In this document: one piece after another, positions 1-17,913 of the stretch | Layout of the letters: each line of letters opens with the position of its first letter | Numbering within the stretch: the first letter of the stretch is position 1 | DNA from: an uncultured virus (IMG/VR IMGVR_UViG_3300047157_000150) | Taxonomy: Duplodnaviria > Heunggongvirae > Uroviricota > Caudoviricetes | Strand: one strand, 5' to 3' | Length of the DNA: 21,001 nucleotides | Virus record (IMG/VR): IMGVR_UViG_3300047157_000150 | The notes under the pieces: generated by a model | The model's database searches: none | The model's input: only the letters and a program-made list of their open reading frames with translations | Told to the model about the DNA's origin: nothing | Made by a program: the position numbers and the translations under genes

Positions 1-180
1 AGAACTCAAGGAGTATTACGAACACTAATGAAAAGAATTGGTGAAAAGCAAGACCAATTTACAGAAGATGAGGGACATGATGAAGCCTTTGAAGATGGTA
101 ATACTTTATTTTATGCAACTGTCGGTGGATTGATTGATAAAATTAGTGAAGCCTTAGCGGTAAGGGAGGAATATACATGA
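1..180 (+). CDS. Partial hypothetical protein (5' truncated by window edge)
   Basis: Frame 1 is open from base 1 (RTQGVLRTLMKRIGEK...ALAVREEYT) to TGA at 178-180, overlapping the next ATG (ATGA). Confidence 0.7.
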   Translation, partial: RTQGVLRTLMKRIGEKQDQFTEDEGHDEAFEDGNTLFYATVGGLIDKISEALAVREEYT

Positions 181-644
181 GTTGGGAAAATATATTAAAG
201 GTGCGAACTAATGAAGAAACACCTGAAAGATTACACGGTCAAGATACCTTTTTAGTCAACGATGATATATACAGACAAGCCGGAGGTAGAATATTAGGAG
301 AAACCGAAGGTGATAGATTTATGGATATTGAAGATATTGAAGAAGCGATAGGTAGAAAATTAACAATTAGAGATTTTAAAAACCATCATTTGAATTGGAA
401 AAGCAATACTAATAAAACATTATTGGATAGAGTTGGTGGATTTAGAGGTCAACAACAATTAGCAGAAAATCAAATTGCAGAAATGCTCGATGACCTGCAT
501 AGAGGAAAACCCGTTGATTCACCCCGAATGTATTTTAATATTTTTAAGGTTTTTATGGAAATATTCGGAGATACATCTCGTCTTATCGAAGAAGTAAGAT
601 TTGCTTTAAGAACATATATGGATATTCATAGTATAAGGGGTTGA
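177..644 (+). CDS. Hypothetical protein with N-terminal WxxILK tag (MSWENILK)
   Basis: 155-aa ORF with AGGGAGGA RBS just upstream and ATGA coupling; no recognisable family. Confidence 0.8.
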   Translation: MSWENILKVRTNEETPERLHGQDTFLVNDDIYRQAGGRILGETEGDRFMDIEDIEEAIGRKLTIRDFKNHHLNWKSNTNKTLLDRVGGFRGQQQLAENQIAEMLDDLHRGKPVDSPRMYFNIFKVFMEIFGDTSRLIEEVRFALRTYMDIHSIRG

Positions 645-648
645 TAAT

Positions 649-855
649 ATGACATGGCAAAATATACTTAAACTTGATTGGCGTGAAATGCTTGATTCTT
701 ATATTACGGAAGACAGTTTATTTGAAAACATTTATAAACATCTTACGAACAGTCTTGGTTATAACGCACCATCGCAAGATGAGGTTATCGACTATTTAGA
801 AGAGAATTACGAAAGACATAAATTATGGACAAACTTATGGAGTGTGAAAGAATGA
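649..855 (+). CDS. Small acidic hypothetical protein with WxxILK tag (MTWQNILK)
   Basis: 68-aa ORF starting 4 nt after the previous stop; GGGGTTGA upstream. Confidence 0.8.
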   Translation: MTWQNILKLDWREMLDSYITEDSLFENIYKHLTNSLGYNAPSQDEVIDYLEENYERHKLWTNLWSVKE

Positions 856-1097
856 CATGGAAAGACGAGATTAAAAAACGAAGTTTAATGACAATGGGGC
901 CGAGGGATTTTATTACAGCAACTCTATTTCACGATTACGGTATTACACAAGATGTAATTGAAATGGTTGTAGACAAGATTCTATTCTTTAACGCCAGCGA
1001 AGACCAATTACAAAGAGCAATGAGCCGAGCAAGTAGGGAGAAAATTTCCCCCCTTCGTGCTTTAAGTTTAATTATGATGGAAGAAAACCCCGTTTAA
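852..1097 (+). CDS. Hypothetical protein with tag variant (MTWKDEIKK)
   Basis: Start moved from 825 to ATG 852, which overlaps the previous TGA (ATGA) and places the shared motif at the N-terminus. Confidence 0.75.
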   Translation: MTWKDEIKKRSLMTMGPRDFITATLFHDYGITQDVIEMVVDKILFFNASEDQLQRAMSRASREKISPLRALSLIMMEENPV

Positions 1098-1112
1098 AAT
1101 TAGGTGATTATT

Positions 1113-1337
1113 ATGACATGGAAAGATATTGTAAAACAACAAGACCTTAGCGATGCCCAAAAGAGAAGTTTATCGGAAGGTGTTAAGAAAACAGGTGTTT
1201 GTCCAAGATGTAAAGAAAGTGTTGTTCTATACAGTATGTGTCCATTAAACTTGAAAGAATATCCAGCAAGACCAAGTTGCCCTATGAAGCAAAAGGAACA
1301 ATCACGAGCAAGGGGATTTCCAACAAAATTAGACTGA
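1113..1337 (+). CDS. Small Cys-rich, putative zinc-binding protein with tag (MTWKDIVK)
   Basis: AGGTGA RBS at 1102-1107 precedes ATG 1113; contains CPRC...CPL...CPM. Confidence 0.75.
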   Translation: MTWKDIVKQQDLSDAQKRSLSEGVKKTGVCPRCKESVVLYSMCPLNLKEYPARPSCPMKQKEQSRARGFPTKLD

Positions 1338-1346
1338 GGGATTAAC

Positions 1347-1574
1347 TTGTGGTTCGATACATTGCGTAAGAAAAGTAAGTCTCGCCGCAAGAAGGGTTCA
1401 AAACAGGCTAAGAAAAAAGGCAGAAAGAAAAAGAAATCCAAGACCAAGAAAGACGCTTGTTATCGCAAAGTAAGAAGTCGTTATAAAAAATGGCCTTCTG
1501 CCTACGCTTCCGGTGCTTTAGTCCAATGTCGTAAAAAGGGTGCGGCTAATTGGGGTAATTCAAAAAAGAAGTGA
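1347..1574 (+). CDS. Very basic small protein (Lys/Arg tract plus DACYxKV...WPSAYASGALVxCR module)
   Basis: TTG start after a GAGGGA RBS; begins MWFDTLRK (tag variant). The C-terminal module resembles one I recall from marine phage hypothetical proteins (unverified). Confidence 0.75.
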   Translation: MWFDTLRKKSKSRRKKGSKQAKKKGRKKKKSKTKKDACYRKVRSRYKKWPSAYASGALVQCRKKGAANWGNSKKK

Positions 1575-1578
1575 TAAC

Positions 1579-2478
1579 ATGTGGCGGGAAATACTCAAGG
1601 AAGAATCCAAATGGATGAACAGTCTTTCTGCGAGTAAGCAAAAACTTCTCGATTCCGAACCTTCTTTTGAAGTAGACATTCCTAAACTTTCATTTCCCGA
1701 TAACGAAGAGGAACTACCAAAGGTTCTAAAAATCATGGAAGGTCAAGACTTAGATAAAAAAACTATTAACGACTTAGATAAAAATAACCATAAGATGTTG
1801 CTCGACATTGTTGGTGAAAAAATGTCCGAATGGGAAGATTTTATAGAAGATGTGGACATTCATACCATACGACTTAAAATGAAATACGGTAGAAAGCGAC
1901 CATATGAAATCTCGGATAAAATTAAGTCTGTGACAAATACAGACGATACACCTTCTTTTCCAAGCGGCCACGCTATTGAAGCACATGCGTTGGCTAAAGT
2001 TCTCGGTGAGAAATACCCCGATAAGAAAAAAGAACTTAATACTATGGCAGATTCAATTTCTCTCTCCCGTGTTCAAATGGGAAATCATTACCCAAGTGAT
2101 ATAGAAGCAGGTAAAAAGGTAGGACTTATGCTTGCCGATGCGTATTTGGATATTTCTAAATCTTGGGAAGATATTTTACAAAAGAAAAGTAAGGCTCGTC
2201 GTAAAAAGTCTTCTAAGAAATATAAGAAGAAAAAGCGTCGAAGTGGCGATAACTTTAAGAGAGAGAAGTCAGAAGGCTTACATGGGTGGTTCTCTCGAAG
2301 AGGTGGAAAGGAAGGTAAAGGAAAGAAAACACAGGGAGGATGGATTGACTGTTCTTCATGTGGAAAGAAAAACGGACCTAAACCTTGTGGAAGAAAAGAC
2401 GCTTCAAAGGGTAGAAAGAGAAGATGCCGCCCAACTTGTGCGGCTTGTAAAACTTACAAAAGGAGGAAGGGAAAATGA
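1579..2478 (+). CDS. PAP2-superfamily (acid phosphatase/vanadium haloperoxidase-like) domain fused to a basic Cys-rich C-terminal domain
   Basis: All three PAP2 motifs are present: K-x6-RP (KMKYGRKRP), PSGH and SR-x5-H-x3-D (SRVQMGNHYPSD). Start moved to ATG 1579 (MWREILK; GTGA upstream). Confidence 0.85.
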   Translation: MWREILKEESKWMNSLSASKQKLLDSEPSFEVDIPKLSFPDNEEELPKVLKIMEGQDLDKKTINDLDKNNHKMLLDIVGEKMSEWEDFIEDVDIHTIRLKMKYGRKRPYEISDKIKSVTNTDDTPSFPSGHAIEAHALAKVLGEKYPDKKKELNTMADSISLSRVQMGNHYPSDIEAGKKVGLMLADAYLDISKSWEDILQKKSKARRKKSSKKYKKKKRRSGDNFKREKSEGLHGWFSRRGGKEGKGKKTQGGWIDCSSCGKKNGPKPCGRKDASKGRKRRCRPTCAACKTYKRRKGK

Positions 2479-2822
2479 CTTGGCAAGACATATTAAAAAG
2501 GGGTGGAGGTCGAGTAAAAGTTAATATGTCTCTTTTTAGAGAAGCCCTCGGAACCGCTTCGGCTTCCCTAAACACATTTACTCTTCCGGAAATTTTACCA
2601 CTTGCACAAGAATTATATAAAGAGTATTTACTTAGGGATGGCATTTATACTAATGCTACCCATGCCGAGCGTCATGCTACAACAGTTTTTAGAACCCGTG
2701 GTAGAGCCGCGGGATTTTTTGGTAGGATTATTAATAATCTAGGGGTTCATCGTCATACTACCCGAAGAAAAAAACTACCATCGGGAAAAAAAGAAACTAT
2801 TTACGAAAGAGTGGAGGGATAG
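2475..2822 (+). CDS. Basic hypothetical protein with tag (MTWQDILK), possibly nucleic-acid binding
   Basis: 115-aa Arg-rich ORF with AGGAGG upstream and ATGA overlap. Confidence 0.8.
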   Translation: MTWQDILKRGGGRVKVNMSLFREALGTASASLNTFTLPEILPLAQELYKEYLLRDGIYTNATHAERHATTVFRTRGRAAGFFGRIINNLGVHRHTTRRKKLPSGKKETIYERVEG

Positions 2823-2825
2823 AAA

Positions 2826-3323
2826 ATGAATTGGAAAAATAGCCTAAAGAAAACTCAATCTAAACTTCCTATAAATTTAGAATCTACTCCAAAGAAAGTA
2901 CAACCACCTATTCCCGAAGAAACAAAAAATATCCCAAAAAATAAACAATCGAAACTTCCCGAAGAATTAACGCAGGGGGCCACCGTTTCTACAATTCCGG
3001 CAGAAAAATGGGGGGAAGAAGTTCCTGAAGAAAAACCGCCGGAAGAAGACAATACAACAACACAATCAAATGTTAAGAATTTTACTAAGTCGGAAGTTAG
3101 TGATACCGATTTAAGAGCAGATGTAATTAAAGAACTTGTTGAAGGTCTAAAAAAATTATTAGAACTTATCAAGGGAATGGATTTAGTCGCACCAAATATC
3201 CCCATGGGGGTTAAGGGTAATCTTGAAACAGAAATCGCAAGTCAATATTCTACTTTAATGGGTTCTTGGGATGAATTAAAGGACATAATGTATAAAATCC
3301 AATATCAATTACAAAACGATTAA
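2826..3323 (+). CDS. Hypothetical protein with tag variant (MNWKNSLK); Pro/Glu-rich N-half, helical C-half
   Basis: 165-aa ORF with GGAGGG RBS upstream; short internal repeat QSKLP occurs twice. Confidence 0.8.
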   Translation: MNWKNSLKKTQSKLPINLESTPKKVQPPIPEETKNIPKNKQSKLPEELTQGATVSTIPAEKWGEEVPEEKPPEEDNTTTQSNVKNFTKSEVSDTDLRADVIKELVEGLKKLLELIKGMDLVAPNIPMGVKGNLETEIASQYSTLMGSWDELKDIMYKIQYQLQND

Positions 3324-3325
3324 TC

Positions 3326-3373: not shown

Positions 3374-3559
3374 ATGAGTACAGAAGAAAAAATAGAAGAT
3401 GCCGCTGATATTGCTGAGGACATTGTAGAATTAGCAGAAGACTTAGGGCTTATTTCTGAAGGCCAAGAAAAAAAATATAAGGCTTTAATTCAAAAAATCT
3501 TGCCTACTTTGGCAGGTGTCATAGGTGGCGCAGTTACAACTTACATGATGCTTAAGTGA
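3374..3559 (+). CDS. Small acidic protein with C-terminal hydrophobic (putative transmembrane) segment
   Basis: 61 aa; acidic N-terminus and C-terminal ILPTLAGVIGGAVTTYMML. Confidence 0.75.
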   Translation: MSTEEKIEDAADIAEDIVELAEDLGLISEGQEKKYKALIQKILPTLAGVIGGAVTTYMMLK

Positions 3560-5262: not shown

Positions 5263-7856
5263 ATATTATAAGTGAAGATGAATTTGGAACTATGTTGGAG
5301 AATTTTTTCAACGAACTTCCTAAAAAGAGAAGTGGGAATAGACCGGATTTTACCTCTATTGATAATATGTTTAAAATTGATTTTTATGGAAGTATGAAAA
5401 GAAGAGGTGAAAAAAATAATGTTAAAACACCTGAAGAAATGCTAAAAGTCGTTGCGTTGATAGACTTCGGTACTGAACTTCCTAGTATTAGTGTTGGAGA
5501 TAGACAAGTATTTACCGCTAGAGATTCAATTAATTTATCTACGGGTTATAAATTTGCTGAACAAGTTTTAAAGTTATTAAAATTGTCTGACGAACAAATA
5601 AACCAAATAGGTGCTCAAGGCGGGGAACAATTTATTAACGAATTGTCGAGTATAGAAAATCTTGAATATGTAAGAGACTATCCCGAAATAGAAACATTTT
5701 TACAGAAATTAGTAAGTGCTTTAGGTGAAACTAAGGAAGCCCCTGAAATTGAAGTTGACAAAGACTTAGATAAAATTATTCAATTTTTTAGAAAATTCGA
5801 TTTAGATGATAAGAATGATAGAGAGGGTATTTATAAATATTGGGAAGAAACAGACACTTTATTCAATTCTCTTGATAATATAAGTCTCCCTATTTATATG
5901 GATAATTTACAATTTAGAGATGTATTTGGTATAGACGAAGAAACCGGCAAACCCAAAAAGGTTGACCTACAATCAATACAAGACAATCAAGGAGATGACC
6001 GTGAATTAGAAAAATTAGTAAATAATCTTCTAAAGAAGAATATTAAAATTCCTAAATTTACAGTTACATATAAAGGTAATCCTTCGATGGAACAGTTTGA
6101 AAATAAAGTCACCTTAATTAAGTTAGCAAATGAGTTTATTAAACCCATTTTAGGAAATACTGCTAACTACGAAAGGTATTTTGAAGAAGCCGAAGATGTT
6201 AACATGAGAGAAGAAAGGCAATATTCCGAAACAGACACAGGTGTTGAAAGTACGCAGGGTGCTTCTATGGATATATCTGTAAATACTTCCGAAAGTGTAT
6301 TAGAAGATATAAGAAAAATAAAAAGAATAGGCGACCCCCTTTCCCTTCTTAGTGCTTATAATAAAGGTGGATTTTATATTAGTGAAAATCTTGCAGAACA
6401 GTTAAGAGAAATGATTGAGAAAGAACTAGAAAGTGTATTGACTAATGTGAGGCCAGAAATTATAGAAAGTAGATTGATTAAAATTAGGGCCTTTACTGAG
6501 GAATTAATTACTGATTTAGTAAATCGAGATAGTTACACATTTTCTATTATAGATGATTCAAAAAATAAATACTTTTTAAATAAATTAGAAGGAGAGGATG
6601 GTCGCTTTATATTTAACTTAGAATACTATCAGTTAGAATTTAAAATGGGTACTCCTGCCACCGTCGAATTTACAAAAATGGAAAAACCCGTATCATCATA
6701 CATTCAGTATGTTGATGAAGTAAATAAAATGGCTAAGGATTTATTTAAAATTATTGAAAGTGGAAAAAATATTTCTAATCCTACTAAATTTAATAGAAAT
6801 CGAGCAAGAGGTAGTATGAAGGGTAGCGCACAAACAACACTTACTCAAGGTAGAAACTACCCGCCAATAGCAGGTAAATTTGCAGAAGCAAACCCTGATG
6901 ATGTTGGACAGCAATTAGTATTTATTTACGATGAACTTGTTAGAATAGTTAACGGTTATTACTATGAAGCGATGGATGCAAGAATGTTTTTTAAGACAGA
7001 TGCTCCCGACTTTACAAGAGATAAAAATTATAAGAAAATTATTTCTCTTTCTACCAAATCAAGAAAATCTGTATTATCGGGAATGCAAAGAAGAATCACC
7101 ACTACAAGTAATATCCCAATTACAAAGAAAGATTTAATTTCTCTTAATGAATTTTTTGATAAAATAAAATTTTATAGTAGACTTTCAAGTGTAGATGCTA
7201 AAAAATATTTTGAACAAGTTCAACCTATCTTTAGAGATTTATATATGGCAGATTTAGTAATTGGTGATGATGAGAATAAAAGAAATATAGTTACTGACAT
7301 AACCAAGAAAATTAAAAATTCATTGGGTGGATTAATGTTTAAACTCTTGACTTCTGCCGGTACTTTTAATACTGAAATAAATTTAGATGAACAGGTAAAG
7401 GTATTTGGAAAACCTCTCGGTTCATATAAAGAAGCAAATGTTGATTTTTCAGAATTGCAATTGTTTGACATTTTAGAAGACGAAGACTTTATACAGTATT
7501 CCTTAGAATCCGGAATGGATAGAGAGCGTAAAAAATTAATTAATACTATGAAAAATAACCCATTGAGAGTTAAACAAGAAATGGGTGATGTGGAAAATAT
7601 GTATAAATCCTACTTAGAGGCATTAGATTTGATAAGGGATAAGGATAGTCAATTAATATATAAGGCTTATTTAGAAACAGAAAATGTTGAACATATGGAG
7701 TATGTATTAGATTTAATCGCTAAAGAAGATAGAATAGATTTGTATGCTCGTGATGTAGAAGGTATCGTAAATTCTAATTCATCCTTTAATAGTTTATCTG
7801 TTATTTTTGGAGTAAGCACTGATGTTATTTACAAGGTTAAGGGGCTATTTAGATGA
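5259..7856 (+). CDS. Large acidic hypothetical protein (865 aa), possible HTH-like C-terminus
   Basis: Long ORF with AGGTGG RBS and ATGA overlaps at both ends. The C-terminus SFNSLSVIFGVSTDVIYKVKGLFR has an HTH-like pattern (weak). Confidence 0.85.
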   Translation: MNIISEDEFGTMLENFFNELPKKRSGNRPDFTSIDNMFKIDFYGSMKRRGEKNNVKTPEEMLKVVALIDFGTELPSISVGDRQVFTARDSINLSTGYKFAEQVLKLLKLSDEQINQIGAQGGEQFINELSSIENLEYVRDYPEIETFLQKLVSALGETKEAPEIEVDKDLDKIIQFFRKFDLDDKNDREGIYKYWEETDTLFNSLDNISLPIYMDNLQFRDVFGIDEETGKPKKVDLQSIQDNQGDDRELEKLVNNLLKKNIKIPKFTVTYKGNPSMEQFENKVTLIKLANEFIKPILGNTANYERYFEEAEDVNMREERQYSETDTGVESTQGASMDISVNTSESVLEDIRKIKRIGDPLSLLSAYNKGGFYISENLAEQLREMIEKELESVLTNVRPEIIESRLIKIRAFTEELITDLVNRDSYTFSIIDDSKNKYFLNKLEGEDGRFIFNLEYYQLEFKMGTPATVEFTKMEKPVSSYIQYVDEVNKMAKDLFKIIESGKNISNPTKFNRNRARGSMKGSAQTTLTQGRNYPPIAGKFAEANPDDVGQQLVFIYDELVRIVNGYYYEAMDARMFFKTDAPDFTRDKNYKKIISLSTKSRKSVLSGMQRRITTTSNIPITKKDLISLNEFFDKIKFYSRLSSVDAKKYFEQVQPIFRDLYMADLVIGDDENKRNIVTDITKKIKNSLGGLMFKLLTSAGTFNTEINLDEQVKVFGKPLGSYKEANVDFSELQLFDILEDEDFIQYSLESGMDRERKKLINTMKNNPLRVKQEMGDVENMYKSYLEALDLIRDKDSQLIYKAYLETENVEHMEYVLDLIAKEDRIDLYARDVEGIVNSNSSFNSLSVIFGVSTDVIYKVKGLFR

Positions 7857-8581
7857 AGAAGGCTTGGGAAATACTAAAGCGTGTGGATATTCGTAATGCT
7901 GAGGAATACGAAAGGGCGTCTTCGGATGATAGAAGAAAATGGCATAATAGACAGACTAGGGCCTATGAAGTAAGATTAAAACAATTACAACGAACTCATA
8001 ATGTCACTAATGAAGAATCACCGATGTATAAAGAAATGGTAGAATTACAGGAATTGTATAGGTTCCATAAAAGACAAATATATAGGCTGAGAGGGAAAGG
8101 GAGAAACCATAAGGATTTCTATTCCTTAGAATTAGAAACTAATAGAAGAAAACATAAAGGCAATGTCACTCCACAAGGCAATCCTATGCCATACACGGAA
8201 CTGTCACAAGATGTTTATGAAACATTATCGGATAGTGAAAAGATAAAATATCATCATAGTATGTACCATAAAACAGAAGGAGAAGAAAAATTATTTCATA
8301 GTAGAATGTATAGCCGTCTTAGACAAAAAAGTCAACACCCTACCTTTGCTTCCTTAAAACATGGTGGAAAATCTGTTTTAGGATTAACAACCACAAAGGA
8401 AGAATACTATAATATGGATGATATAGATAGGCGTAAATTTCATAATCGTATGAGGTCAAGGGCAGCAAGAAATAATAATTTAGAATTAGTGCGGTTTCAC
8501 AACAGACAATATAATAGATTAAGAAGAAATAGTAGCCTACCTGTATTCTATTCACCCGAACACGAACAGGAGGAACAATAA
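7853..8581 (+). CDS. His/Arg-rich protein with three internal repeats, tag variant (MKKAWEILK)
   Basis: Repeated EEY-x7-R(K)-[WYF]H and FH-x-R-x2-3-RL...F(Y)S units; lies immediately upstream of terL. Confidence 0.8.
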   Translation: MKKAWEILKRVDIRNAEEYERASSDDRRKWHNRQTRAYEVRLKQLQRTHNVTNEESPMYKEMVELQELYRFHKRQIYRLRGKGRNHKDFYSLELETNRRKHKGNVTPQGNPMPYTELSQDVYETLSDSEKIKYHHSMYHKTEGEEKLFHSRMYSRLRQKSQHPTFASLKHGGKSVLGLTTTKEEYYNMDDIDRRKFHNRMRSRAARNNNLELVRFHNRQYNRLRRNSSLPVFYSPEHEQEEQ

Positions 8582-9996
8582 TGGATTTACTCACAGAAAT
8601 GGATATGAAAGCCTCCGATGGTAATTTTGAATATTTCTTTACAAAAATTCTCGGAATGGAAATGGCAGACTTTCACCGTGATTGGCTACAATCAGTTCAC
8701 GACACACAAAGAACTGTAATCATTTGTTCCCGTGACCACGGAAAGTCTGTATTCTTTCACTCTTGGTGTATCTACCAATTAATTTTTCAGCCTCCACCAT
8801 ATCAAATGATTTACATTTCATCAAACCAAAAACAGACAATGGTTCACATGAAAGATATTGACCGAATGTTCACAAACATTCCTGCCCTAAGAAAATACAA
8901 ACCTAAAGCAGGTTGGGCTGTCGGTTCAATGAGATTAACAAACGGGAATGAAATACTTGAGCGTTCCGTTGGTTCACAGATTCGTGGACTTCACCCTCAA
9001 GAGATTATTATTGACGACCCTATGAAGGAGTTCTCCGTAGCCGCTATACAGCGAGTTACAGATTGGTTTTGGGGTGACATGATTCCTACTCTCCACCACA
9101 CCGCTACTTTACGGATGGTCGGCACACCTTTCACATATACTGATATATTCGCCGCATTGGAGGAAAACCCTGAATATGATGTGCAACGCTATCCAGCAAT
9201 AAATCAAACAGGTGATGCTCTTTGGCCTTCCCGTTGGGATATAGATTCTTTAGAAAAGAGAAGGCGAGAAATCGGTTCTTCTAAGTTTACAAGAGAATAT
9301 CTTTGCATACCAATTTCATCCAATACGATGTTATTTGGAAAGGAATTTATCGACAAGTCTAAAGACCGTACAAGTAAGTTGTCTTATCATGGTAATACTG
9401 AGGCATTCAAATACTACATTGGTTACGACCCTTCACTTTCAGCAGACGGCGACTACACAGTGATGATGGTTATAGAAGTAGATGAAGATATGAATAAAAA
9501 GGTGGTATGGATGGTAAGAGAAAAAAATATGGATTTTCGTTCACACATCACACGCATTACAGACCTTTGTGAAAGATATAAACCCGAAGTTGTAATGATT
9601 GAAACTAATACATTTGCCAAGTCTTTTGCTATGGAACTGCGTGATATATCTGATTTTCCTGTTAAGGAATTTACTATGCACCGTAAGAAGAAAGAAGAAA
9701 TTATTCTTAACTTGCAAATGAATTTAGAAAATGATAAAATTATATTACCCTATGCGGATGAAAAGGCAAAGGCTGTTTCGGATTCAATTATACAAGAACT
9801 TGAAGCATTCGGTATTAGCAGTACGGGAAAAATTGAAGGATTAGGCGCACACGATGATATTGTTATTGCGCTCGCATTGGCTAATCACGCCACAAAGTCT
9901 TTTAATGATGCTTTCATAGACATAGATGGAGGGGGCTTATTTGGAAGTCCCTCAAGGCAAGATTTCGGAGGTGGTATATATGGAATTAATATGTAA
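8581..9996 (+). CDS. terL: Terminase large subunit (Terminase_6-like ATPase plus RNase H-fold nuclease)
   Basis: Walker A-like SRDHGKS, Walker B IIIDD, coupling motif VGTP, nuclease acidic motifs IGYDPS...DYT and HDDIVIALALA; GGAGGA RBS. Confidence 0.93.
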   Translation: MDLLTEMDMKASDGNFEYFFTKILGMEMADFHRDWLQSVHDTQRTVIICSRDHGKSVFFHSWCIYQLIFQPPPYQMIYISSNQKQTMVHMKDIDRMFTNIPALRKYKPKAGWAVGSMRLTNGNEILERSVGSQIRGLHPQEIIIDDPMKEFSVAAIQRVTDWFWGDMIPTLHHTATLRMVGTPFTYTDIFAALEENPEYDVQRYPAINQTGDALWPSRWDIDSLEKRRREIGSSKFTREYLCIPISSNTMLFGKEFIDKSKDRTSKLSYHGNTEAFKYYIGYDPSLSADGDYTVMMVIEVDEDMNKKVVWMVREKNMDFRSHITRITDLCERYKPEVVMIETNTFAKSFAMELRDISDFPVKEFTMHRKKKEEIILNLQMNLENDKIILPYADEKAKAVSDSIIQELEAFGISSTGKIEGLGAHDDIVIALALANHATKSFNDAFIDIDGGGLFGSPSRQDFGGGIYGINM

Positions 9997-11356
9997 GGAA
10001 GATGAAATTGACACAAATGAACTTCGTAGAAAGTTGGAAGAATTAGACCAAGCACAGCGAGAAGCAAAACAAAAGAAAGAAAATTTGTTAGGGGAAATTA
10101 AACTTAGCCAATGGCTTCCGTATCAGTCATTTGACGAAACTGAAGTAATTAAAGATATTTCTAAAATTTATTCAGTTAATCTAACTGATGCGAGAAATAT
10201 GCTTTCCTCATTTCCCGAAGAACCTCTTATTGATAATAAGTCTATACCGGACATTGTTAAAGATTTAAGAAATATGCGTAGAAAATTAAAGGGTGACACA
10301 AGAATGAAAATGAGTAAAACTATTGACCATCTTATCAATGCTTATGGTGACCATTTGAATAAGTGCATTGATTCTGTATATTGGCTTTCTCCGTATAAAT
10401 CAGCAGTTAAGATGCTTACTCCCGATTTAGTCACATTGAGGAAATTAGAACATATTAAGGATGGAAGTCAACGCCAAGAAATTATTGACAATTTGGTTAA
10501 AATGTGGGAAGCCGATATTTTTAAGAATGAATTAGATTATGGTAAAGAATATGCTGATTACACAAAAGTATTCAAGGAAAGTAAAAAAAGCATCAGGTCC
10601 ATTTTAAAAGAAATATCTCATCAGGCAATTCGCAAGTCAAGGCAGGAAGTTTTGGATAATTTAATAATTAAAACAATTTGTAATAATCCCGGTATTTCCA
10701 GCAACGCTATTCATTCTATGATGCCTAAAAGTTATCATCGTTCTACTACTCCTCAGACTATTTCTAAAATGCTAAGAAAAATTAATGCTACCAATGTAAA
10801 CGGAGATTATTACATTCTTAGTGATGAAATTAAAAAGGACCTTTATGGATATGTAGCAGGGTTTATTGACTCGGATGGTTATATTACTATGGATTCGTCT
10901 TATTCTCCCCGTGTTGGTATGATTGCCACAGGGGATAGAGGTAAGAGCATTTCTTTCAAGAAATGGAAAAAGAACTTAAAATTGGTCGCCTACACTTAGA
11001 CCAAAAGGTAGGGGAAAATAGCCGTAGTCAACATAGGTTAAATTTTTATAGCCAAAATGATATTACAAAACTATTGGATGAAGTGCCTACCTCATCTAAG
11101 AATGAAAAAGGAACAAGGGCGACTTTTACAAGAAGCCATCAAGATTAAAAAATTCTATAAAAAAGAACCGTGGGCAAAGGATAGAATGGTAGAAATTTTT
11201 AAACTTATTAAGTGGGAAAATTGGAAGGACGCTCGTAATCAAGGTGCTGTTGAGTTTGAAAAATATGACATACAAGTAGACAACATTTCAAAATATAAGG
11301 ATAATTGTAAGTGGGAATTGATGAACGAAATGGATTCTATTGTTAAGGAGGAATAA
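9980..11356 (+). CDS. Multi-domain protein: helical N-terminus, winged-HTH-like segment and single-motif LAGLIDADG domain (frame broken near 10945 and 11080)
   Basis: GGAGGTGG RBS precedes ATG 9980. YVAGFIDSDG is a LAGLIDADG motif. ORFs 9926-10999, 10963-11148 and 11057-11356 join into a continuous LAGLIDADG fold (...RLNFYSQNDITKLL..CLPHLRMKKEQ...). Confidence 0.8.
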
Positions 11357-11358
11357 AT

Positions 11359-13054
11359 ATGGGACTAAGAGATAGATTTAGAACAGTTGATTAGAAGAAG
11401 AACACCTATCCCTGTTGAAAAGGATGTTTACAATTTAGGTATTCAAGAGCGTAGATTGCCCCAGCATTACGCAGGGCGTTATCTTTATGATACTGCTAAA
11501 AACTCAACTGTTGTAAGAACTTGTTTAGTTCAACTTAAGAATGAAGTTTTTCGTAGAGGTTACGAATGGAAGAAGGCTTTTGACCTAAGAAGTGTAATTC
11601 TTGTGGATATGAACACCAAAAAGACTGTTGATGAATGTATGAATTGTGAGGTCACAAGATTTAAGAAAGCCAAGTTATAAACAAAAGGTTTACGCTGAAA
11701 ACTTTTTTAAGAACCATGTAAATGAATCTCATCAATTATTTATTGATGTTCTTAAAGGAATTGGAAACAGACTTAAATGTAATGGATGATGCCTTTTTAA
11801 TTCTTAGTTAAAGGATTACTTTTTAGAAGAAGACGGGTGAAATTGCCATGTCTAAAATTAACGAAATTTATAGAGGCGACCCAACGACTAATGTTTATTG
11901 AAGTTGATGAAGATGGTGATAGAGGGCATTCAAGATATACTTGCATTACACATAGAGATTTTATCTGAAGATAAGATATGAAAAGTGTGGCATATGTGGT
12001 AGCTAACTTACACCCCATTGAATTTACCAATAAAACTTCTCAGGATGAACAACATTATATTACGGGTGAGGTAGTGCATTTTAGTAAATACTCCCCGTAC
12101 AAGATTGTACGGCCACCCTCCAGTTTTAACACTTGTTTAATCATGTATTTACTTTATCAGGCTATGGAAAACTTACATCAGCACTCTCATACACAAAAAT
12201 GAGAACCCCTAGAGGTATTCTTAGCAGTACAAACAAATAACATGGAATCATTAGTAAAGTATTGGAAAGGTGTGAAGGAAAAGTTAGAGCGTGACCCCCA
12301 CTATGTACCTATTATGGGTATTGAAAGTGACAGTGGTTCTCGTGAAAGTTCTGTTGAATGGGTTCCTTTCATGAATACTATTAAGGAAATGGACTACATA
12401 ACTGCCGTAAAGGATGATTTGCGTACTCGTATTTCTTCGCTTTCTACGGTGTGAGTAATGTATTCACTGGCAGATACTACAACGGGTGGAGGTCTAATTC
12501 AACGAAGGTATGCAGATACTAGTTACTAATCGTGCAGTTGAAATGGCTCAAAATGTCTACAATAAATATCTATTCCCATTCCTAATGGACCAATTCGGTA
12601 TCACTGATTGGAGAGGTTCAACTACTTAGAAGTTCGAGGAAGAAGATGAAATGGCTGTTATGAGAAGAAGGGAAATGGAAATTAATCTTGCGGTTCAAAT
12701 GAAAAATCTTGGCTTTGAGGTTGATATGAACGAAGATGGAGATTTCGTCTTTAAGAAATTCCCCGCTAAGGAATTAATTGATGTTGAAGTTAGATAGTAA
12801 TGAGGGTGAGATGTTAGACAGTATACCCCTATGCGGGAACTAATATTGACGCTTCACAATTAGGGCAACTTCAAGAACAAGCCTTAATGAGCTGGTCAAT
12901 ACTAAAGGCCCAAGTAGCAGGAGAAGTTTCTGAAAAAACTGATTATATATCAAAACCAAGAATGTCTTCCCCACCTGATAAAAGGTTTAGTGGATTACCC
13001 GGTAAGGCTGGAAATAAAAATGTAGATAAAAGAACTGAGAGGCGAGTAGGATGA
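11359..13054 (+). CDS. Portal protein (heavily frameshifted in this sequence)
   Basis: AAGGAGGA RBS and ATG at 11359. Joined frames give portal-like segments (DLNVMDDAF, EVVHFSKYSP..LYG.PP, PRGIL, I..FYGV, VTNRAVEMAQ, YLFPFL). Located downstream of terL; ends ...VDKRTERRVG-TGA, overlapping the next ATG. Confidence 0.75.
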
Positions 13055-15717
13055 TTTACAAGGGATTGATGGGTAGAGAAGAAGTAAGGGACCTTTTGAC
13101 AAAATTCCCTAATATTAGATGGTATCAAAAGTATGAAGGTAGTTATTATAACAATGGGCAGTTTTTAAAAGAAGATGAATTATTAGAAATAGATATGTCT
13201 GCTCAAACTTACAATGAAATTATGAGTATTGACAAGCCTGAAGTAGGTGATAAAAATTCGACGGAAATTTTAGATTTAACTTCTTTTGGGCAGGGTAGAA
13301 TGATAACTGATTATAAAATATCAGGTATGGGTTCAACTTCTAATAATGTTATTAACTATTTAAAAAAACAAATAGATATGGTAGCGACACCACAAGGTTA
13401 TTACTTTATAAATTTATTTGGAAAAAATCTAAATGAAATTCAGTTTAATGAAAAACTACAAAATTTAACTATGAAGGTAAGGCCCGACAGAAATTCTACT
13501 TATGCTAATAATAGGAATGATATGCCTTATAGAATACAGGATAGAAATAAAAACGATAAAGAAATGCAATTTTTAAGAATTACGGGATTAGCAAATATAT
13601 CATTAAGTGTGACAAATCGTTATGACGGAGAATTAGATACCCATTTTTTAATTTTTAAACCCTCTTCTAATGCTTATGGTTTTGAAATCGAAGCGAGAAG
13701 TTTTTATAGAACAAAAATGAGACTTAATAACTTACAAAAAAGAAACTTGAATATTGAACCATTGAATAGTGAATATAGTTGGTTGGAAAAATACCAATTA
13801 AAAGCGATTTCAGGAGTTGAGTATGATATTAACGCAGGTGATTTTACAAAATTTTTAAATCCCGAAGCATTTAATTTATTTAGTAGATGGTTAAGAAAAA
13901 CAATAAATAAAAGAATGGGTAATAAACAAGTTTTTCAAATTTATACACTCAATAAAAATAAAATTGAAAAAAACCCACCTCTAGGAATAAAGGTAGACAA
14001 CGCATTTTTAAATCATGTTTTTACTCCAACGATGACTCCTACGGGTACACGATATGAAAGGTCTCCTAGTTTAGAATCTTTTCTTACTCGACCTTTAAAA
14101 GTACCTCCAAATAAACCCGAAGTTTTAGTTAATCTTGTAAAAGAGGGTTTTCAAGAATTTTTTACCAATACTAGAAAATATAGACCATTGGGCAGGGAAT
14201 TTTTTACAGATAAAAAGTTTGCTGAAGGTAGGTCTAATTTATTCTCAACACTAAGAGCAAAAATTAATATTTTTATGGGTTCAAGAACTACTCATTCAGG
14301 AAAACAAATGAGACCTGTTAGAAATAAAGACGGGAATACAACAATTGGTGATACTCGTAAAATTAATAAAAGGCTTATTGAATTACCACAAAATATTAAA
14401 GACATAGTAACTTTGATGAATAATAAAGCAATAGACTTAGTTCCAATTAAGGATTTACGAGAGGTGTCGAAATATTGGCCTAATTGGGTAGAAGAACAAT
14501 TTGGCGACTCAACCTCAGATGAAAAGGGTTTTGTTATAGGGAACTTTAATTCTATGCAAAGAGTTGAGAATTTTCAACGAGTTGGTTTATTACCCGAAGA
14601 CGACGCTGAAATAGGTGAGAATGCCTTTGCATTTACACTTGCTTATGAAATGGGTTCATTTAGAAGTGTATATATTTTTTATGTAGATTTAATTAAAAGA
14701 GAAATTACAGTAGTTAAGGCCGGTGTTAAAGATGATACTAATGTTTTTACTAGTCAATTTCAAGATTATGATTTAAGGGTCGATTTAATAAATGCAATTA
14801 ATAGAACACTTAGAGAACCTGAAGGAAAGGCATTTGGTGATTCTTCGAGATATAGAGGAAACTACAGATACATGTCAGGTAGCCCCGAACAGCAAGCAAC
14901 AGCCTTTGCTGCTCAATTACATAAAAACCCAAGTTGGGTTAATAACTCTAATGTAGTCTATACTAGCAAAATTACAGGTGATATAGCATCAGGAAAGGTT
15001 GGAGGCTCTACTATATACTACGGCCCAGACCAAGCATCTTATTTTATATTCCCTTACAGTGCGTTCTATCACGATAGACATGGACACGGTTTAGATAGAG
15101 CAAATTTATGTTTAACTCCTATTACACACCCATTCGGAAATCAATTTTACCTATATATTAAAGAAATAATAAACAACATACCGAGAAACACAAAATTAGA
15201 TAAAATTATACCTAAAGAGTATAGGATGAATGAAGAATTAGGCGACTACACACGAAAAGAAAGTTTAGAACAAGTAATAATATATCGCTGGGCTGAGAAA
15301 TTGATGGGTAGTAAGCCACTTAACGAAAGTTTGGGTGAAATGCTGAAAGAACTTGCCTTAGATTGTTTAGAAAAATATCCTCCGGTAAGCATAGGAAGCC
15401 CAAGATGTATTCATCTAGGTGAAAGCAAGGCTCCAGCCACCGATTTTGCGGCTCTTTTTGGAAGTAAGATTAGCGGTGACAATCCCTTCCCTATAAATCC
15501 TAATGTTCCAGCGATGGGGGGCGTTCCCAGATTTGATGCACCGCAAGCATATAATACTGATACATTAAATTTCACAGTTAAGGAAGTCGCAGTAATACAT
15601 TCACAATATTTTAACGCAATGTCTGTTGAAGAAATGACAGACCTTACTAATGAAGTATATAGAGAATACTTTTCAAAAAATAAACCTAATGTACCAACAT
15701 TGGCACAACACGGATAA
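13051..15717 (+). CDS. Large hypothetical protein (888 aa)
   Basis: Intact long ORF coupled to the portal stop by ATGA; no recognisable family. Confidence 0.85.
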   Translation: MIYKGLMGREEVRDLLTKFPNIRWYQKYEGSYYNNGQFLKEDELLEIDMSAQTYNEIMSIDKPEVGDKNSTEILDLTSFGQGRMITDYKISGMGSTSNNVINYLKKQIDMVATPQGYYFINLFGKNLNEIQFNEKLQNLTMKVRPDRNSTYANNRNDMPYRIQDRNKNDKEMQFLRITGLANISLSVTNRYDGELDTHFLIFKPSSNAYGFEIEARSFYRTKMRLNNLQKRNLNIEPLNSEYSWLEKYQLKAISGVEYDINAGDFTKFLNPEAFNLFSRWLRKTINKRMGNKQVFQIYTLNKNKIEKNPPLGIKVDNAFLNHVFTPTMTPTGTRYERSPSLESFLTRPLKVPPNKPEVLVNLVKEGFQEFFTNTRKYRPLGREFFTDKKFAEGRSNLFSTLRAKINIFMGSRTTHSGKQMRPVRNKDGNTTIGDTRKINKRLIELPQNIKDIVTLMNNKAIDLVPIKDLREVSKYWPNWVEEQFGDSTSDEKGFVIGNFNSMQRVENFQRVGLLPEDDAEIGENAFAFTLAYEMGSFRSVYIFYVDLIKREITVVKAGVKDDTNVFTSQFQDYDLRVDLINAINRTLREPEGKAFGDSSRYRGNYRYMSGSPEQQATAFAAQLHKNPSWVNNSNVVYTSKITGDIASGKVGGSTIYYGPDQASYFIFPYSAFYHDRHGHGLDRANLCLTPITHPFGNQFYLYIKEIINNIPRNTKLDKIIPKEYRMNEELGDYTRKESLEQVIIYRWAEKLMGSKPLNESLGEMLKELALDCLEKYPPVSIGSPRCIHLGESKAPATDFAALFGSKISGDNPFPINPNVPAMGGVPRFDAPQAYNTDTLNFTVKEVAVIHSQYFNAMSVEEMTDLTNEVYREYFSKNKPNVPTLAQHG

Positions 15718-15735
15718 GTAAAAGGAGAGATAAAT

Positions 15736-15951
15736 ATGAGTAATATGATAAGAAGAAAATTAGATGAAGCAAAAAAACAATTGGCAGACCTTGAGCGAAA
15801 GGCTAATAAACCGGAACCTACGCCTAAGAAAACTGTGGACTTAACAATGAATGTTCCCGAAGTTCCTCCGGATAACTTTGAGGCAGACCCTGTTATCCCC
15901 GGAATTATTAAACCCGGCCCAAAAATGTCCAAAAAATTTAGACAGGTGTAA
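15736..15951 (+). CDS. Small protein with N-terminal coiled coil and Pro-rich C-terminus
   Basis: 71 aa with AAGGAGA RBS. Confidence 0.8.
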   Translation: MSNMIRRKLDEAKKQLADLERKANKPEPTPKKTVDLTMNVPEVPPDNFEADPVIPGIIKPGPKMSKKFRQV

Positions 15952-15953
15952 GT

Positions 15954-17913
15954 ATGTGGGAAACAATTCTAAAGAGGAAGTATTAAGCCCAACGCTACTC
16001 TTGAAGATATTGAAATTAAATTAAGACAGGCTATACAAGTTCCTGTTTTAGAACAGGTTGTTTCTTCAAATAAAATTGCACTTGATACCTACCCAAACTC
16101 TAAAGCATATAAGGAAGAAATTCAAGAATTAAGAAAAAAAATTAAAGAAGATGAAAAAACCATAGAGGCTTACAAAAAATCAAATCCTTTCGTAGCCTTT
16201 GGTGGAAAGGGTAATATTAAAATTGATGAAGATAAAAAAATTATTGATGATGGTTACGGGAGAAACGAATTTTATCCGATATACGCTTTACCATCGGGTA
16301 AAAGGCCGGGTTTAGGAGGGGAAAGTGGAAAGAAAATAATAGACCCCGAAACACCTCTTACGATAGAAGAAGCGGCTCTACACTATAAGAAAGAAATAGT
16401 TGATTACGATGAAGTAAATGTTAATAGGGTTATGCCTGATGATAAACCTTATGATGCACCTTATGGTCAAAAGGTAGAATCTAAGGATATTGAACCTTCT
16501 AAAGATGTTAAAGATTTAGAAGAAGCAAAGGATAGATTATATTATTATGAAAATATAATTGAAGATAGAAGAACTTCTAATGATGAAGCGATGATTTTAA
16601 GACTTCGTAGTGAGATAAAGGAATTAGAATCACAAATAATTGAAGATGTTGAAACAAAAACATCTCTTAGGGTAGAAGAATCAAGGGCTTTACCGTTAGA
16701 TGCTACTACTTTAAATCAAATATACGAAGTCCTTTATCCAAGAAGTGAGGAAGAAATAAAAACAATTTTAATTGGACTTGGGCAATATTTAAACAATCTT
16801 CCTACCCCAATAGATGTTGAAAAACTTCTAAAACCTTACGAACTTAAAAGAATAAAAGAAATTATTGAGTCTGTACCGGATGCAATAAATAACCCTGTTG
16901 ACAATTATATAAGAAATTTAGTTTCAATGGTAAAGAGTAGAAGAGATAAAACTCTTGGTGTTATTAAGTCAATTAAATTAAATAGACCTAATAAAAAAAT
17001 CCCTGCTATGATTAAAGTTGTAAAAAGTGGAAATATTACAATAAATCAAGCAAATGCAATTTTACCCTTAACTCACGATTTTACTGATAATGATTTTAGT
17101 AAATTTCAGACTTTTATGGAAGCAAATTACTCCCCTATACCAAAGGTAAGTAATAAGAATTTATTTATGAAAAGGTTAACAACTGATATTTACGGGGCAA
17201 CCGGAGTACCTACAAATGAAGAACTAAGAAGTGCTGGGGGTAGTGCTGGTGTTGACCAAATATCTCTAAATTACATGATTGAATGGCTTTTGATAGATAA
17301 TAAACTTGAATCGGAATTAAGAAAAATACTTACAGTAGCCGGACAGCGTTTATCCCCTAAAGAAAGAGTAAGAAGAATTTCTAATTTATTGAATAGTGCT
17401 AAATATAAAAATAAAAATTTCATACCACTTATGCAGAAATATATTTTTGACGAGTCTTCAAAAAATCTTCTCACTGAAAAACAAGTAAAGGAGGTAGAAG
17501 AATTATTGTCTGTTAAAATAGATGGTAAAAGTATTCTTACACATCTTTTATCGGTTATAGACACTAAGTTTATAGTTCCTTCTAAACCTAAAGTAAAGAC
17601 ACTAAAGGATAAAATTATGTCTAAAATGTCATTAGAAAAGGCAGATATATCTTCTCTCCCACCAAAGAAGCGAAGAGAAGTAAAGGCCCTACTTCAAAAC
17701 GCCCATCCAACGGAATACTTTGGTGAAGATTACCTTCGTTTGGGCAAAGTTATAAATATAATTGACGGTTTAGCGGAAGATGAAGAGGCTGAACTCTTAG
17801 AAAAATTGGGCGTTAAAAATTTACAGATGGTAAAGACAGCCGCATCACTAAGAAAGAAATATGAAAATCTATACAAAAAACTATACGACATGGTATATGA
17901 TGAGGAGGAATAA
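15954..17913 (+). CDS. Large hypothetical protein (about 650 aa) with tag MWETILK; one frameshift near 15975
   Basis: ATG 15954 follows an AGGTG RBS and reads MWETILKRKY-stop. The frame of ORF 16432-17913 is open back to 15973, so a single indel joins the two. Confidence 0.75.

What the first reader, a model, noticed from the sequence alone, without database searches (positions are those of the whole stretch)
177..15974. Shared N-terminal 'WxxILK' peptide tag on about 10 unrelated proteins: candidate capsid-cargo address system
Seen: starts read MSWENILK (177), MTWQNILK (649), MTWKDEIK (852), MTWKDIVK (1113), MWFDTLRK (1347), MWREILK (1579), MTWQDILK (2475), MNWKNSLK (2826), MKKAWEILK (7853, one residue shorter) and MWETILK (15954). 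Similarity stops right after the Lys and the bodies are unrelated (phosphatase, Cys-rich protein, basic proteins, repeat protein). Codons vary synonymously (TTA/CTT/CTC/CTA, AAA/AAG), pointing to protein-level selection. TerL, portal, ligase and protease starts lack the tag. Known: T4 internal proteins carry a short N-terminal capsid-targeting sequence removed by prohead protease gp21. Inference: an analogous amphipathic tag loads diverse cargo into the prohead and is cut at the Lys, delivering a variable payload on infection.
Basis: partly seen in the sequence, partly recalled or inferred. Interest (0 to 1): 0.9.

Follow-up and report, generated by a model that had tools for sequence, protein, structure and literature searches.

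The report
Shared address tag on magrovirus proteins
Ten otherwise unrelated genes in this piece of an ocean archaeal virus start with the same eight-residue peptide, which echoes the tail of the virus's own head scaffold and so probably labels a fast-changing set of small proteins for loading into the capsid, though loading has not been shown.

Summary
All ten claimed starts exist: six are canonical M-x-W-x-x-I-L-K and four are variants. The gene at 15954 is cut short by a one-base insertion that relatives lack. The tag is lineage-wide. In 80 related viral loci, 188 tagged ORFs fall into 90 unrelated body families. Codons for I, L and K vary as in gene bodies, so selection acts on the protein. 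In two complete ~91-96 kb relatives, 24 of 68 and 14 of 62 genes on the head/tail strand carry it, against 0 of 47 and 0 of 59 on the replication strand. It is absent from 185,579 prokaryote genomes except for two lone hits.

Split and fused gene forms show one tag per polypeptide, and an internalised tag decays. The protease-scaffold ends in a conserved M-S-W-x-E-h motif in all 47 distinct sequences seen. A 78-aa head protein in the window carries the same motif.

Best reading (about 0.5): a scaffold-mimicking capsid-loading label, working like the phage T4 capsid-targeting sequence. Cleavage after the Lys and delivery into the host are unsupported inference. This scan has reported the same tag on other magrovirus DNA at least nine times. 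I found no mention of it in the three magrovirus papers I searched.

The parts
1..180 (+). 3' end of an eleventh tagged gene; its start lies outside the window
   Evidence: Identical to the C-terminus of a 119-aa G001 protein that starts MKWQDILK
177..644 (+). Tagged gene, 155 aa, MSWENILK; the tag sits on a disordered leader
   Evidence: AF2 gives residues 1-20 pLDDT below 50 and a folded body. All 15 aligned homologues keep the tag.
649..855 (+). Tagged gene, 68 aa, MTWQNILK
   Evidence: The tag is invariant in 6 of 6 family members, down to 56% identity.
852..1097 (+). Tagged gene, 81 aa, variant tag MTWKDEIK
   Evidence: The start overlaps the previous stop by 4 nt.
1113..1337 (+). Tagged gene, 74 aa, four-Cys zinc-ribbon-like, MTWKDIVK
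1347..1574 (+). Tagged, very basic protein (pI 11.3) with a TTG start and variant tag WFDTLRK. It carries a 40-aa Cys-basic domain shared with T4-like cyanophages.
   Evidence: Relatives start MWFDTLRK or MWFDVLRK with ATG.
1579..2478 (+). Tagged soluble PAP2-type phosphatase, 299 aa, MWREILK, fused at its C-end to a basic Cys-rich module
   Evidence: Pfam PAP2 49.2 bits against a cut-off of 27.2; maximum KD19 0.56
2161..2181 (+). Relic internal tag SWEDILQ at the fusion joint inside the PAP2 gene
   Evidence: In L032 the same module is a separate gene that starts MTWQDILRKK
2475..2822 (+). Tagged gene, 115 aa, MTWQDILK
2826..3323 (+). Tagged gene, 165 aa, variant tag MNWKNSLK
7853..8581 (+). 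Gene just upstream of TerL, 242 aa, shortened variant MKKAWEILK
8581..9996 (+). Large terminase, untagged (context)
   Evidence: phrog_38 E 2.1e-53; Terminase_6C
15954..17913 (+). Large tagged head-module protein, MWETILK. Its frame is broken after 10 codons by one extra base near 15976. The N-terminal tag and the C-terminal ~90 residues are conserved; the middle is variable.
   Evidence: A contig from an RNA library lacks the base.
17916..18152 (+). 78-aa scaffold-like head protein with the C-terminal motif KMDWSDLDSLV (nt 18099-18128)
   Evidence: The same motif type ends the protease-scaffold.
20717..21001 (+). Start of the prohead protease-scaffold fusion, cut by the window end. Its C-terminal M-S-W-x-E-h motif lies outside the window.
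   Evidence: Peptidase_S78_2. The full G001 protein scores 47.5 bits on Peptidase_S78 against a cut-off of 21..

Best explanation
The window comes from a roughly 91-96 kb tailed archaeal virus of the magrovirus kind. M-x-W-x-x-[IV]-[LI]-K is a modular, protein-level address label placed at the N-terminus of each member of a large, fast-turning-over set of small soluble accessory proteins, and of one large head-module protein. I read it as a capsid-loading tag. It imitates the conserved M-S-W-x-[DE]-hydrophobic peptide near the C-terminus of the virus's own protease-scaffold and of a small second scaffold-like protein. In other tailed viruses that is the part that docks on the inner face of the coat protein. 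Tagged proteins would therefore be drawn into the assembling procapsid.

Shown: the tag exists, it is selected as protein, it is one per polypeptide, it is restricted to one strand and module, and the scaffold motif is conserved. Inferred: binding to the procapsid, retention in the virion, release into the next host cell, and any cleavage after the Lys.
For: (1) Unrelated bodies share the tag. 188 tagged ORFs from 80 loci plus the window form 90 BLASTP families, 62 of them seen in one locus only. Only 2 of 89 representatives pass a Pfam cut-off (PAP2 and pentapeptide repeat). Only 3 of 93 hit any PHROG at E<=1e-5.

(2) Selection acts on the protein. In 78 families the codons are Ile ATA 45 / ATT 35 / ATC 3, Leu TTA 34 / CTA 13 / CTT 9 / TTG 3 / CTC 2, and Lys AAA 99 / AAG 17. 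All are close to body usage.

(3) There is one tag per chain. Fused basic-domain+PAP2 proteins carry a single N-terminal tag, while the window's split genes 1347 and 1579 each carry their own. A tag that became internal through fusion has decayed, M to K and K8 to Q.

(4) In the 155-aa protein the tag lies in a 20-residue low-confidence leader outside the fold.

(5) Placement is specific. 24 of 68 and 14 of 62 + strand genes are tagged, against 0 of 47 and 0 of 59 on the replication strand (p 6e-7 and 6e-5). Tagged genes abut TerL with gaps of at most 50 nt, follow the portal, and are inserted in the tail module.

(6) The scaffold carries an echo of the tag. An ORF ending at the capsid gene was found in 76 of 76 loci examined, and all 47 distinct C-termini hold M-x-W-x-[DEQ]-h about 12 residues from the end, down to 41-46% capsid-protein identity. 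Its Ser is coded TCN in 34 of 34 cases, whereas the tag's Ser is AGT in 45 of 53. The likeness is therefore at protein level and is not copied DNA.

(7) The tagged proteins are all soluble: 0 of 90 families have a membrane-like segment.

(8) The tag is virus-specific. The MSWEDILK-coding pattern gives 2 lone hits in 185,579 prokaryote species genomes, against 90 stretches in viral contigs. Of the 80 viral loci fetched, 67 hold two or more tags on the strand that bears them and none hold any on the opposite strand.

(9) Known precedents exist. The T4 capsid-targeting sequence sits on diverse internal defence proteins (PMC3012670, passages). The P22 scaffold C-terminus binds the coat N-arm (PMC9965877, passages).
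Against: There is no direct evidence that any tagged protein is in a virion, binds the capsid protein or is cut.

The likeness to the scaffold motif is short. The tag's Met is simply the start codon, and L7-K8, the most invariant tag positions, are not in the scaffold motif. With a tag PSSM, the G004 scaffold tail scores only -4.0 bits, well below every true tag.

A third of one strand's genes (24 of 68) is far more than known cargo sets.

The main tagged block is the first part of the + strand array, right after the divergent control region, which is where early host-takeover genes would also sit.

A tagged gene sits directly before TerL, a usual place for a small terminase.

Orthologues can lose the Trp (G001 MQEKILK) or the whole tag (P0082, the first gene of its block).

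In the 68-aa protein the tag is modelled as the start of the first helix and not as a free leader.
Confidence: 0.5

Rival explanations
1. The tag is a protein-level address label read by something other than the procapsid. The tagged block would be an early host-takeover or anti-defence set. Its members would be recognised by one common partner, such as a chaperone, a protease acting as a timer (a degron), or a viral compartment.
For: The main block is made of small, fast-changing orphan genes at the start of the + strand array, next to the divergent control region. The number of tagged genes is large (24 of 68). Invariant L7-K8 are not explained by scaffold mimicry.
Against: This does not explain why the protease-scaffold and the 78-aa head protein keep M-x-W-x-[DE]-h at their tails in all 47 distinct sequences. 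It also does not explain why tagged genes sit after the portal and inside the tail module.
Confidence: 0.22
2. The tag docks on the scaffold or procapsid, but the tagged proteins are assembly helpers or competitors that leave with the scaffold. They are not a payload delivered to the next cell.
For: The resemblance to the scaffold is the same as for the best explanation. Scaffolds themselves leave or are degraded (established knowledge of tailed-phage assembly).
Against: Ninety unrelated, mostly lineage-specific families (62 seen in one locus) is not what assembly factors look like. The set includes very basic DNA-binder-like proteins and an enzyme.
Confidence: 0.1
3. The conservation is a nucleic-acid signal. 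It would be a translation-initiation or re-initiation context, a site for a translational regulator, or a recombination joint for swapping gene cassettes.
For: Codon 2 is under nucleotide constraint. Ser is AGT in 45 of 53 cases, against 34% in gene bodies (p 9e-11), and the usual residues S, N, T and K all have A-starting codons. The genes are packed with 4-nt overlaps.
Against: Codons 6-8 use synonymous codons as freely as gene bodies do. Untagged genes in the same tight array (TerL and the two large proteins) start without the tag. A Trp codon is not expected from an AT-rich initiation context. The scaffold motif uses a different Ser codon family.
Confidence: 0.05
4. The tag is a relic of common descent. 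All tagged genes would be diverged paralogues that kept only their N-terminus.
For: Local paralogue runs exist. Nine consecutive G004 genes share the tag plus NIQISSQRTSSKDYV.
Against: The tag sits on proteins of independent origin, including a PAP2 phosphatase, a pentapeptide-repeat protein and a cyanophage-type basic domain. It also appears de novo at a gene split. Keeping eight residues alone would still need selection.
Confidence: 0.05

Closest known systems
Capsid targeting sequence (CTS) of phage T4 internal proteins
   Same: A short N-terminal peptide is the only thing shared by a diverse, fast-evolving set of proteins. In T4 it encapsidates them into the scaffolding core, and many of them counter host restriction (PMC3012670, passages).
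   Different: The sequence is different. The host is an archaeon and the protease is of the S78 (HK97) type. The scale is far larger, with 14-24 genes per genome and 90 families in 80 loci. The tag echoes the scaffold's own tail. Removal by the protease and packaging are shown for T4 but not here.
N-terminal packaging signal of phage P1 DarB (Dar anti-restriction system)
   Same: The N-terminal 30 residues are sufficient to send a foreign protein into the capsid, and the cargo acts against host defence (PMC9024508, abstract and passages).
   Different: P1 has one signal on one protein, loaded in a stepwise order. It is not a consensus octapeptide on dozens of proteins.
[quoted passage not shown]
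   Same: A short peptide at the scaffold's C-end docks on the coat protein's N-arm inside the procapsid (PMC9965877, passages). Fusing cargo to it loads virus-like particles (PMC9962691, search listing and abstract only).
   Different: In P22 the use for cargo is man-made, and the peptide is a C-terminal helix-turn-helix. Here a natural N-terminal copy is proposed, and binding is untested.
C-terminal capsid-targeting tail of the HK97 maturation protease; encapsulin cargo-loading peptides
   Same: Short terminal peptides that take a protein inside an HK97-fold shell (recalled from memory; no paper was read here).
   Different: In those systems each peptide serves one or a few dedicated proteins, not a large variable repertoire.

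Membership tests
T4-type capsid targeting sequence system | Short N-terminal peptide shared by otherwise unrelated proteins of one virus | tested here: met
   10 genes in the window; 90 families in relatives; no body pair with E below 0.5
T4-type capsid targeting sequence system | The peptide ends in the prohead protease's cutting site and is removed | tested here: inconclusive
   Four conserved h-h-[KR] columns in 50 protease-scaffold sequences (reference residues 22, 59, 104, 175) all lie within or at the edge of the S78 domain match at residues 23-177. They may simply be strands of the fold. The capsid protein has no propeptide to compare with.
T4-type capsid targeting sequence system | Tagged proteins are present inside virions, and the tag is sufficient to load a foreign protein | not testable with these tools
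   There is no cultured host and no virion proteome. The closest cultured capsid relative, HVTV-1 (26% identity), showed neither tag nor motif in the 15 head-region genes read.
T4-type capsid targeting sequence system | Sequence likeness to the T4 peptide itself | not tested
   No T4 sequence was fetched. The claim made here is 'works like', not homology.
Scaffold-type coat-binding peptide | Conserved peptide at the scaffold's C-end | tested here: met
   M-x-W-x-[DEQ]-h in 47 of 47 distinct protease-scaffold tails, and in the 78-aa head protein
Scaffold-type coat-binding peptide | The tag matches that peptide | tested here: inconclusive
   They share M, a small or polar residue, W, x, an acidic or amide residue, and a hydrophobic residue. 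They differ at positions 7-8. The tag PSSM gives the scaffold tail -4.0 bits.
Scaffold-type coat-binding peptide | The peptide binds the major capsid protein | not testable with these tools
Magrovirus (tailed virus of Poseidoniales archaea) | Genome of about 90-100 kb with a head module akin to haloarchaeal siphoviruses and its own replication module | tested here: met
   Relatives with 72-97% identical TerL are 90.8 and 95.6 kb with a divergent replication strand. The nearest cultured capsid proteins are halovirus proteins at 26-28% identity, as the founding paper describes (PMC5434244, passages). No named magrovirus record was available to compare, and host assignment was not tested.
Peptidase S78 prohead protease | Pfam gathering score | tested here: met
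   47.5 bits against a cut-off of 21 for the full G001 protein. The window holds only its first 95 residues.

The most novel reading that the evidence does not exclude
Magroviruses run a general-purpose protein-delivery system. Any polypeptide given the eight-residue N-terminal tag docks, by imitating the scaffold tail, on the capsid protein inside the procapsid, and the S78 protease frees it after the invariant Lys. A quarter to a third of the late-strand genes would then travel in the virion and act in the next archaeal cell before any viral gene is expressed. That would be the largest natural capsid-cargo repertoire known.
Probability: 0.3. Interest if true: 0.85.

Novelty: new variant of a known kind. 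Interest (0 to 1): 0.75.

Why it matters
These are viruses of one of the most abundant archaeal groups in the surface ocean, and nearly all of their accessory genes are orphans. A readable label sorts those orphans into one functional class and makes that class countable in metagenomes. If the label loads capsids, it would be the first cargo-addressing system described for archaeal viruses. It would show that scaffold mimicry is a natural way to recruit cargo, and not only an engineering trick. It would also offer an eight-residue handle for loading foreign proteins into HK97-fold shells. The split and fusion cases give a rare natural demonstration that an address tag is kept per polypeptide and decays once buried.

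Tried and rejected
**Complex prediction.** I submitted the capsid protein alignment (A2, 41 sequences) with the 68-aa tagged protein (A1). Nothing was folded.

**ESM Atlas.** The search with the large tagged protein gave a best score of 0.80 to unnamed viral clusters, so it is a lead only.

**Foldseek.** Searching the 155-aa model against the PDB gave no match at E<=0.001. The cargo's function stays unknown.

**RNA libraries.** Three runs hold 6-9% of the sampled words, as short contigs only. They show that relatives' sequence is present in RNA libraries, but they cannot show timing or expression level.

**Halovirus HVTV-1.** It has the same head-gene order, but the 15 head-region genes read show no N-terminal tag and the protease tail has no M-x-W motif. 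A cultured virus therefore cannot serve as a stand-in.

**A possible eleventh motif in the portal.** MSWSILK near 12887 is an artefact of local indels in the window; relatives read MSGQSKGQ there.

**The 'structural protein' label.** A cyanophage homologue of the basic domain (S-E7) carries this label. The source paper's main text calls the gene cluster a hypothetical protein, and the supplement sequence file held as text labels it the same way. I do not count it as evidence.

**Hydrophobic-hydrophobic-Lys sites as protease cutting sites.** These cannot be told apart from strands of the fold.

**Whole-genome look-up.** No genome is held for this window.
Full report
**What is in the window.** The 21-kb window is one co-directional gene array at about 33% G+C. 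It encodes a large terminase (8581-9996; phrog_38 E 2.1e-53), an ATP-dependent DNA ligase (18571-20160) and the start of a prohead protease (20717 onward). No whole genome is held for it.

The nearest record, G001 (36.9 kb), aligns over the whole window at 96.7% identity with 93 gap positions. TerL relatives of 67-100% identity occur on 80 viral contigs, several of them 88-96 kb long. Two are rated complete: G002 at 90.8 kb and G004 at 95.6 kb with terminal repeats.

Three things fit the published description of magroviruses (PMC5434244, passages). The genomes have this size. They have a head/tail strand and a divergent replication strand. The nearest cultured capsid proteins are halovirus proteins at 26-28% identity. 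I could not compare the window with a named magrovirus record.

Six are canonical and four are variants: 852 has E at position 6, 2826 has S at position 6, 1347 has a TTG start and T-L-R-K, and 7853 has one residue fewer between W and I-L-K.
- In six frames the loose motif occurs 13 times, 8 of them exactly at + strand ORF starts.
- The DNA pattern occurs 6 times against 0.59 expected, and no shuffle out of 100 reaches 6.
- The ten bodies share no BLASTP similarity below E 0.5.
- Composition after the Lys is unconstrained: at positions 9-12 no residue exceeds 16 of 81 families.

Two corrections apply. The ORF at 15954 stops after 10 codons. The 646-codon open frame behind it is shifted by one base. 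Close relatives read MWETILKRNIKPNATL... straight through for 811-829 aa, G001 is intact, and a contig in an RNA library lacks one base at 15976. So the window carries a one-base insertion, either a sequencing error or a mutation. Also, the cut ORF at 1-180 is the tail of an eleventh tagged gene.

**The tag is lineage-wide and sits on unrelated proteins.** In the 80 TerL loci (975 kb), W-x-x-[ILVM]-[ILVM]-K occurs 266 times in six frames. Of these, 180 are on the TerL strand within three residues of a Met, 62 are elsewhere on that strand and 24 are on the other strand.
- 188 tagged ORFs of 30 aa or more cluster into 90 families when compared from residue 13 onward. 62 families were seen in a single locus.
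- The consensus in 81 families is M, then S 45 / N 13 / T 10 / K 8, then W 81, then E 29 / K 26 / Q 10, then D 37 / N 20, then I 69 / V 9, then L 58 / I 18, then K 79 / R 2. The search pattern forced the classes at positions 3 and 6-8, but it also allowed F, T, M and R, which are rare.
- Only 2 of 89 representatives pass a Pfam cut-off, namely PAP2 and pentapeptide repeat. One 30-aa representative was left out of that search.
- Only 3 of 93 hit a PHROG at E<=1e-5, all of unknown function.
- Median length is 106 aa. 69 of 90 representatives are 150 aa or shorter. 21 have pI of 9.5 or more and 25 have pI of 5 or less. None has a membrane-like segment. For comparison, 5 of 44 and 7 of 48 untagged + strand proteins do; this is not significant within one genome.
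- The tag reaches a deep clade: a contig whose capsid protein is 45% identical carries 4 strict tags.

**Selection acts on the protein.** Across 78 families the Ile, Leu, Lys, Asp, Glu, Asn and Thr codons of the tag are used about as in gene bodies (p 0.02-0.7). Codon 2 is the exception. Ser is AGT in 45 of 53 cases against 34% in bodies (p 9e-11), and the favoured residues S, N, T and K all have A-starting codons. Position 2 therefore mostly reflects a start-site context.

**There is one tag per polypeptide.** The PAP2 family supplies natural experiments. Among the best 120 of its 287 relatives, 60 start with the tag. Another 13 show it behind a longer called start, and many others are called from a Met inside the tag.
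- In eight relatives the basic Cys domain and PAP2 are one protein with a single N-terminal tag. In the window they are two genes (1347 and 1579), and the second gene has MWREILK where the fused forms have a linker.
- The window's PAP2 gene has in turn absorbed a downstream basic module that is a separate tagged gene in L032. The now-internal tag reads K-SWEDILQ, having lost both the Met and the invariant Lys.
- A tagless orthologue also exists, as the first gene of its block.
- AF2 places the tag of the 155-aa protein in a 20-residue stretch of pLDDT below 50 outside a confident body. In the 68-aa protein it begins the first helix.

**Where tagged genes lie.** In G004, 24 of 68 + strand calls of 50 aa or more are tagged, against 0 of 47 on the replication strand. 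In G002 the figures are 14 of 62 against 0 of 59 (these are crude ORF calls, with calls under 50 aa dropped). This answers the test 'equally common on replication genes'.

Most tagged genes form one block that leads into the terminase. In the window, genes from 177 to TerL are separated by at most 50 nt, five of the junctions overlap, four of them by 4 nt. Other tagged genes lie just before TerL, just after the portal region (the large protein at 15954), inside the tail module (three genes in G001 and G002) and at the end of the array.

**The tag is virus-specific.** The commonest coding form of MSWEDILK gives 2 lone hits in one genome each of 185,579 prokaryote species. Neither is from Poseidoniales. 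It gives 90 stretches in viral contigs. Of 80 viral loci fetched, 67 hold two or more tags and 59 hold three or more, with a median of 4 per 5 kb or less. All tags in a locus lie on one strand and none on the other.

**The scaffold echo.** The protease (Peptidase_S78, 47.5 bits against a cut-off of 21) is fused to an acidic, coiled scaffold region.

I examined 76 of the 79 capsid-gene loci; three were dropped because the capsid match starts at the locus edge. In all 76, the ORF that ends at the capsid gene was found. All 47 distinct C-termini carry M-[SDTNE]-W-x-[DEQ]-[AVIL] about 12 residues from the end, amid variable sequence, down to 41-46% capsid identity. A second head protein, the 78-aa product of 17916-18152, ends in KMDWSDLDSLVKNLEGTI and has the same motif.

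The motif's Ser is TCN in 34 of 34 cases, against AGT in the tags, so this is not copied DNA.

In P22 the last scaffold residues dock on the coat N-arm (PMC9965877, passages). By analogy the tag would dock cargo on the capsid protein. The capsid N-arm is well conserved: 11 of residues 4-20 are at least 90% conserved, with invariant D13 and E15. Pairing of these with the tag's Lys is only my conjecture.

The likeness is limited. The tag's Met is the start codon, L7-K8 have no counterpart in the scaffold motif, and a tag PSSM gives the G004 scaffold tail -4.0 bits while true tags score 12-30.

**Cleavage.** Nothing here supports cutting after the Lys. Four conserved hydrophobic-hydrophobic-[KR] columns exist in 50 protease-scaffold sequences, but all lie within or at the edge of the protease domain match. 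The capsid protein has no propeptide. That HK97's protease cuts after a Lys is my recollection only.

**Verdict.** The tag is a real, modular, protein-level address label, and I found it undescribed in the papers I could search. Full-text search for magrovirus plus N-terminal returned 3 papers, none about the tag. Word searches inside PMC5434244, PMC11706807 and PMC10160649 found no N-terminal motif, leader or tag. Their supplements were not read.

Capsid loading by scaffold mimicry is the best-supported mechanism, at about 0.5. The main rival is a label for another reader on early genes. This scan has already reported the same tag on other magrovirus DNA at least nine times. New here are the split/fusion evidence, the Ser-codon contrast, the second scaffold-like protein, the screen of prokaryote genomes, and the indel explanation for 15954.

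Noticed in passing
window 11042-13054: The portal gene is broken into at least six frames here, but it is one intact ORF of 553-556 aa in G001 and G002 (the weak Phage_portal match, 32.3 bits against a cut-off of 39.1, was scored on G001's). With 93 gap positions against G001 over 21 kb, and G001's own TerL broken, this looks like indel-prone sequencing and not decay.
   Followed up: partly
window 1452-1571 (residues 36-75 of gene 1347): This 40-aa Cys-basic domain (...WPSAYASGALVQCRKKGAANWG) is 69-86% identical in the 40 listed of 365 matching phage records, nearly all T4-like cyanophages; all 365 are at least 60% identical. It is a module shared between bacterial and archaeal marine viruses. 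In cyanophages it lies in a long, basic, multi-module protein of a mobile cassette.
   Followed up: partly
window 18571-20160: An ATP-dependent DNA ligase (103.7 bits) sits inside the head module, between the scaffold-like protein and the protease. In G001 the ORF is 699 aa with a C-terminal extension of unknown function.
   Followed up: no
window 13051-15717: An 888-aa protein with no Pfam or PHROG match lies between the portal and the large tagged protein. Halovirus HVTV-1 has a 'head assembly' protein and a 1313-aa protein in the matching place.
   Followed up: no
window codon 2 of tagged genes (e.g. 180-182, 652-654): There is a strong preference for an A-starting second codon (AGT for Ser in 45 of 53 cases, against 34% in gene bodies). 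This suggests a +4 A start context in this virus or its host.
   Followed up: partly
G004 (L085/L081) about 83.8-89.6 kb and 5-679: A run of at least nine paralogous genes (167-806 aa) shares the tag plus NIQISSQRTSSKDYVxPDE, showing local amplification within the tagged block.
   Followed up: no
window 3374-3559: This untagged 61-aa acidic protein has a hydrophobic C-terminal segment (KD19 1.58; weak match to a PHROG annotated hemolysin, E 6e-4). It is conserved, ahead of two large untagged proteins, in G001, G002 and G004.
   Followed up: no
G009 (L180), 184.7 kb record: A viral record twice the usual size carries 10 strict tags in two groups about 94 kb apart. It may be a concatemer or two related genomes joined in assembly.
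   Followed up: no
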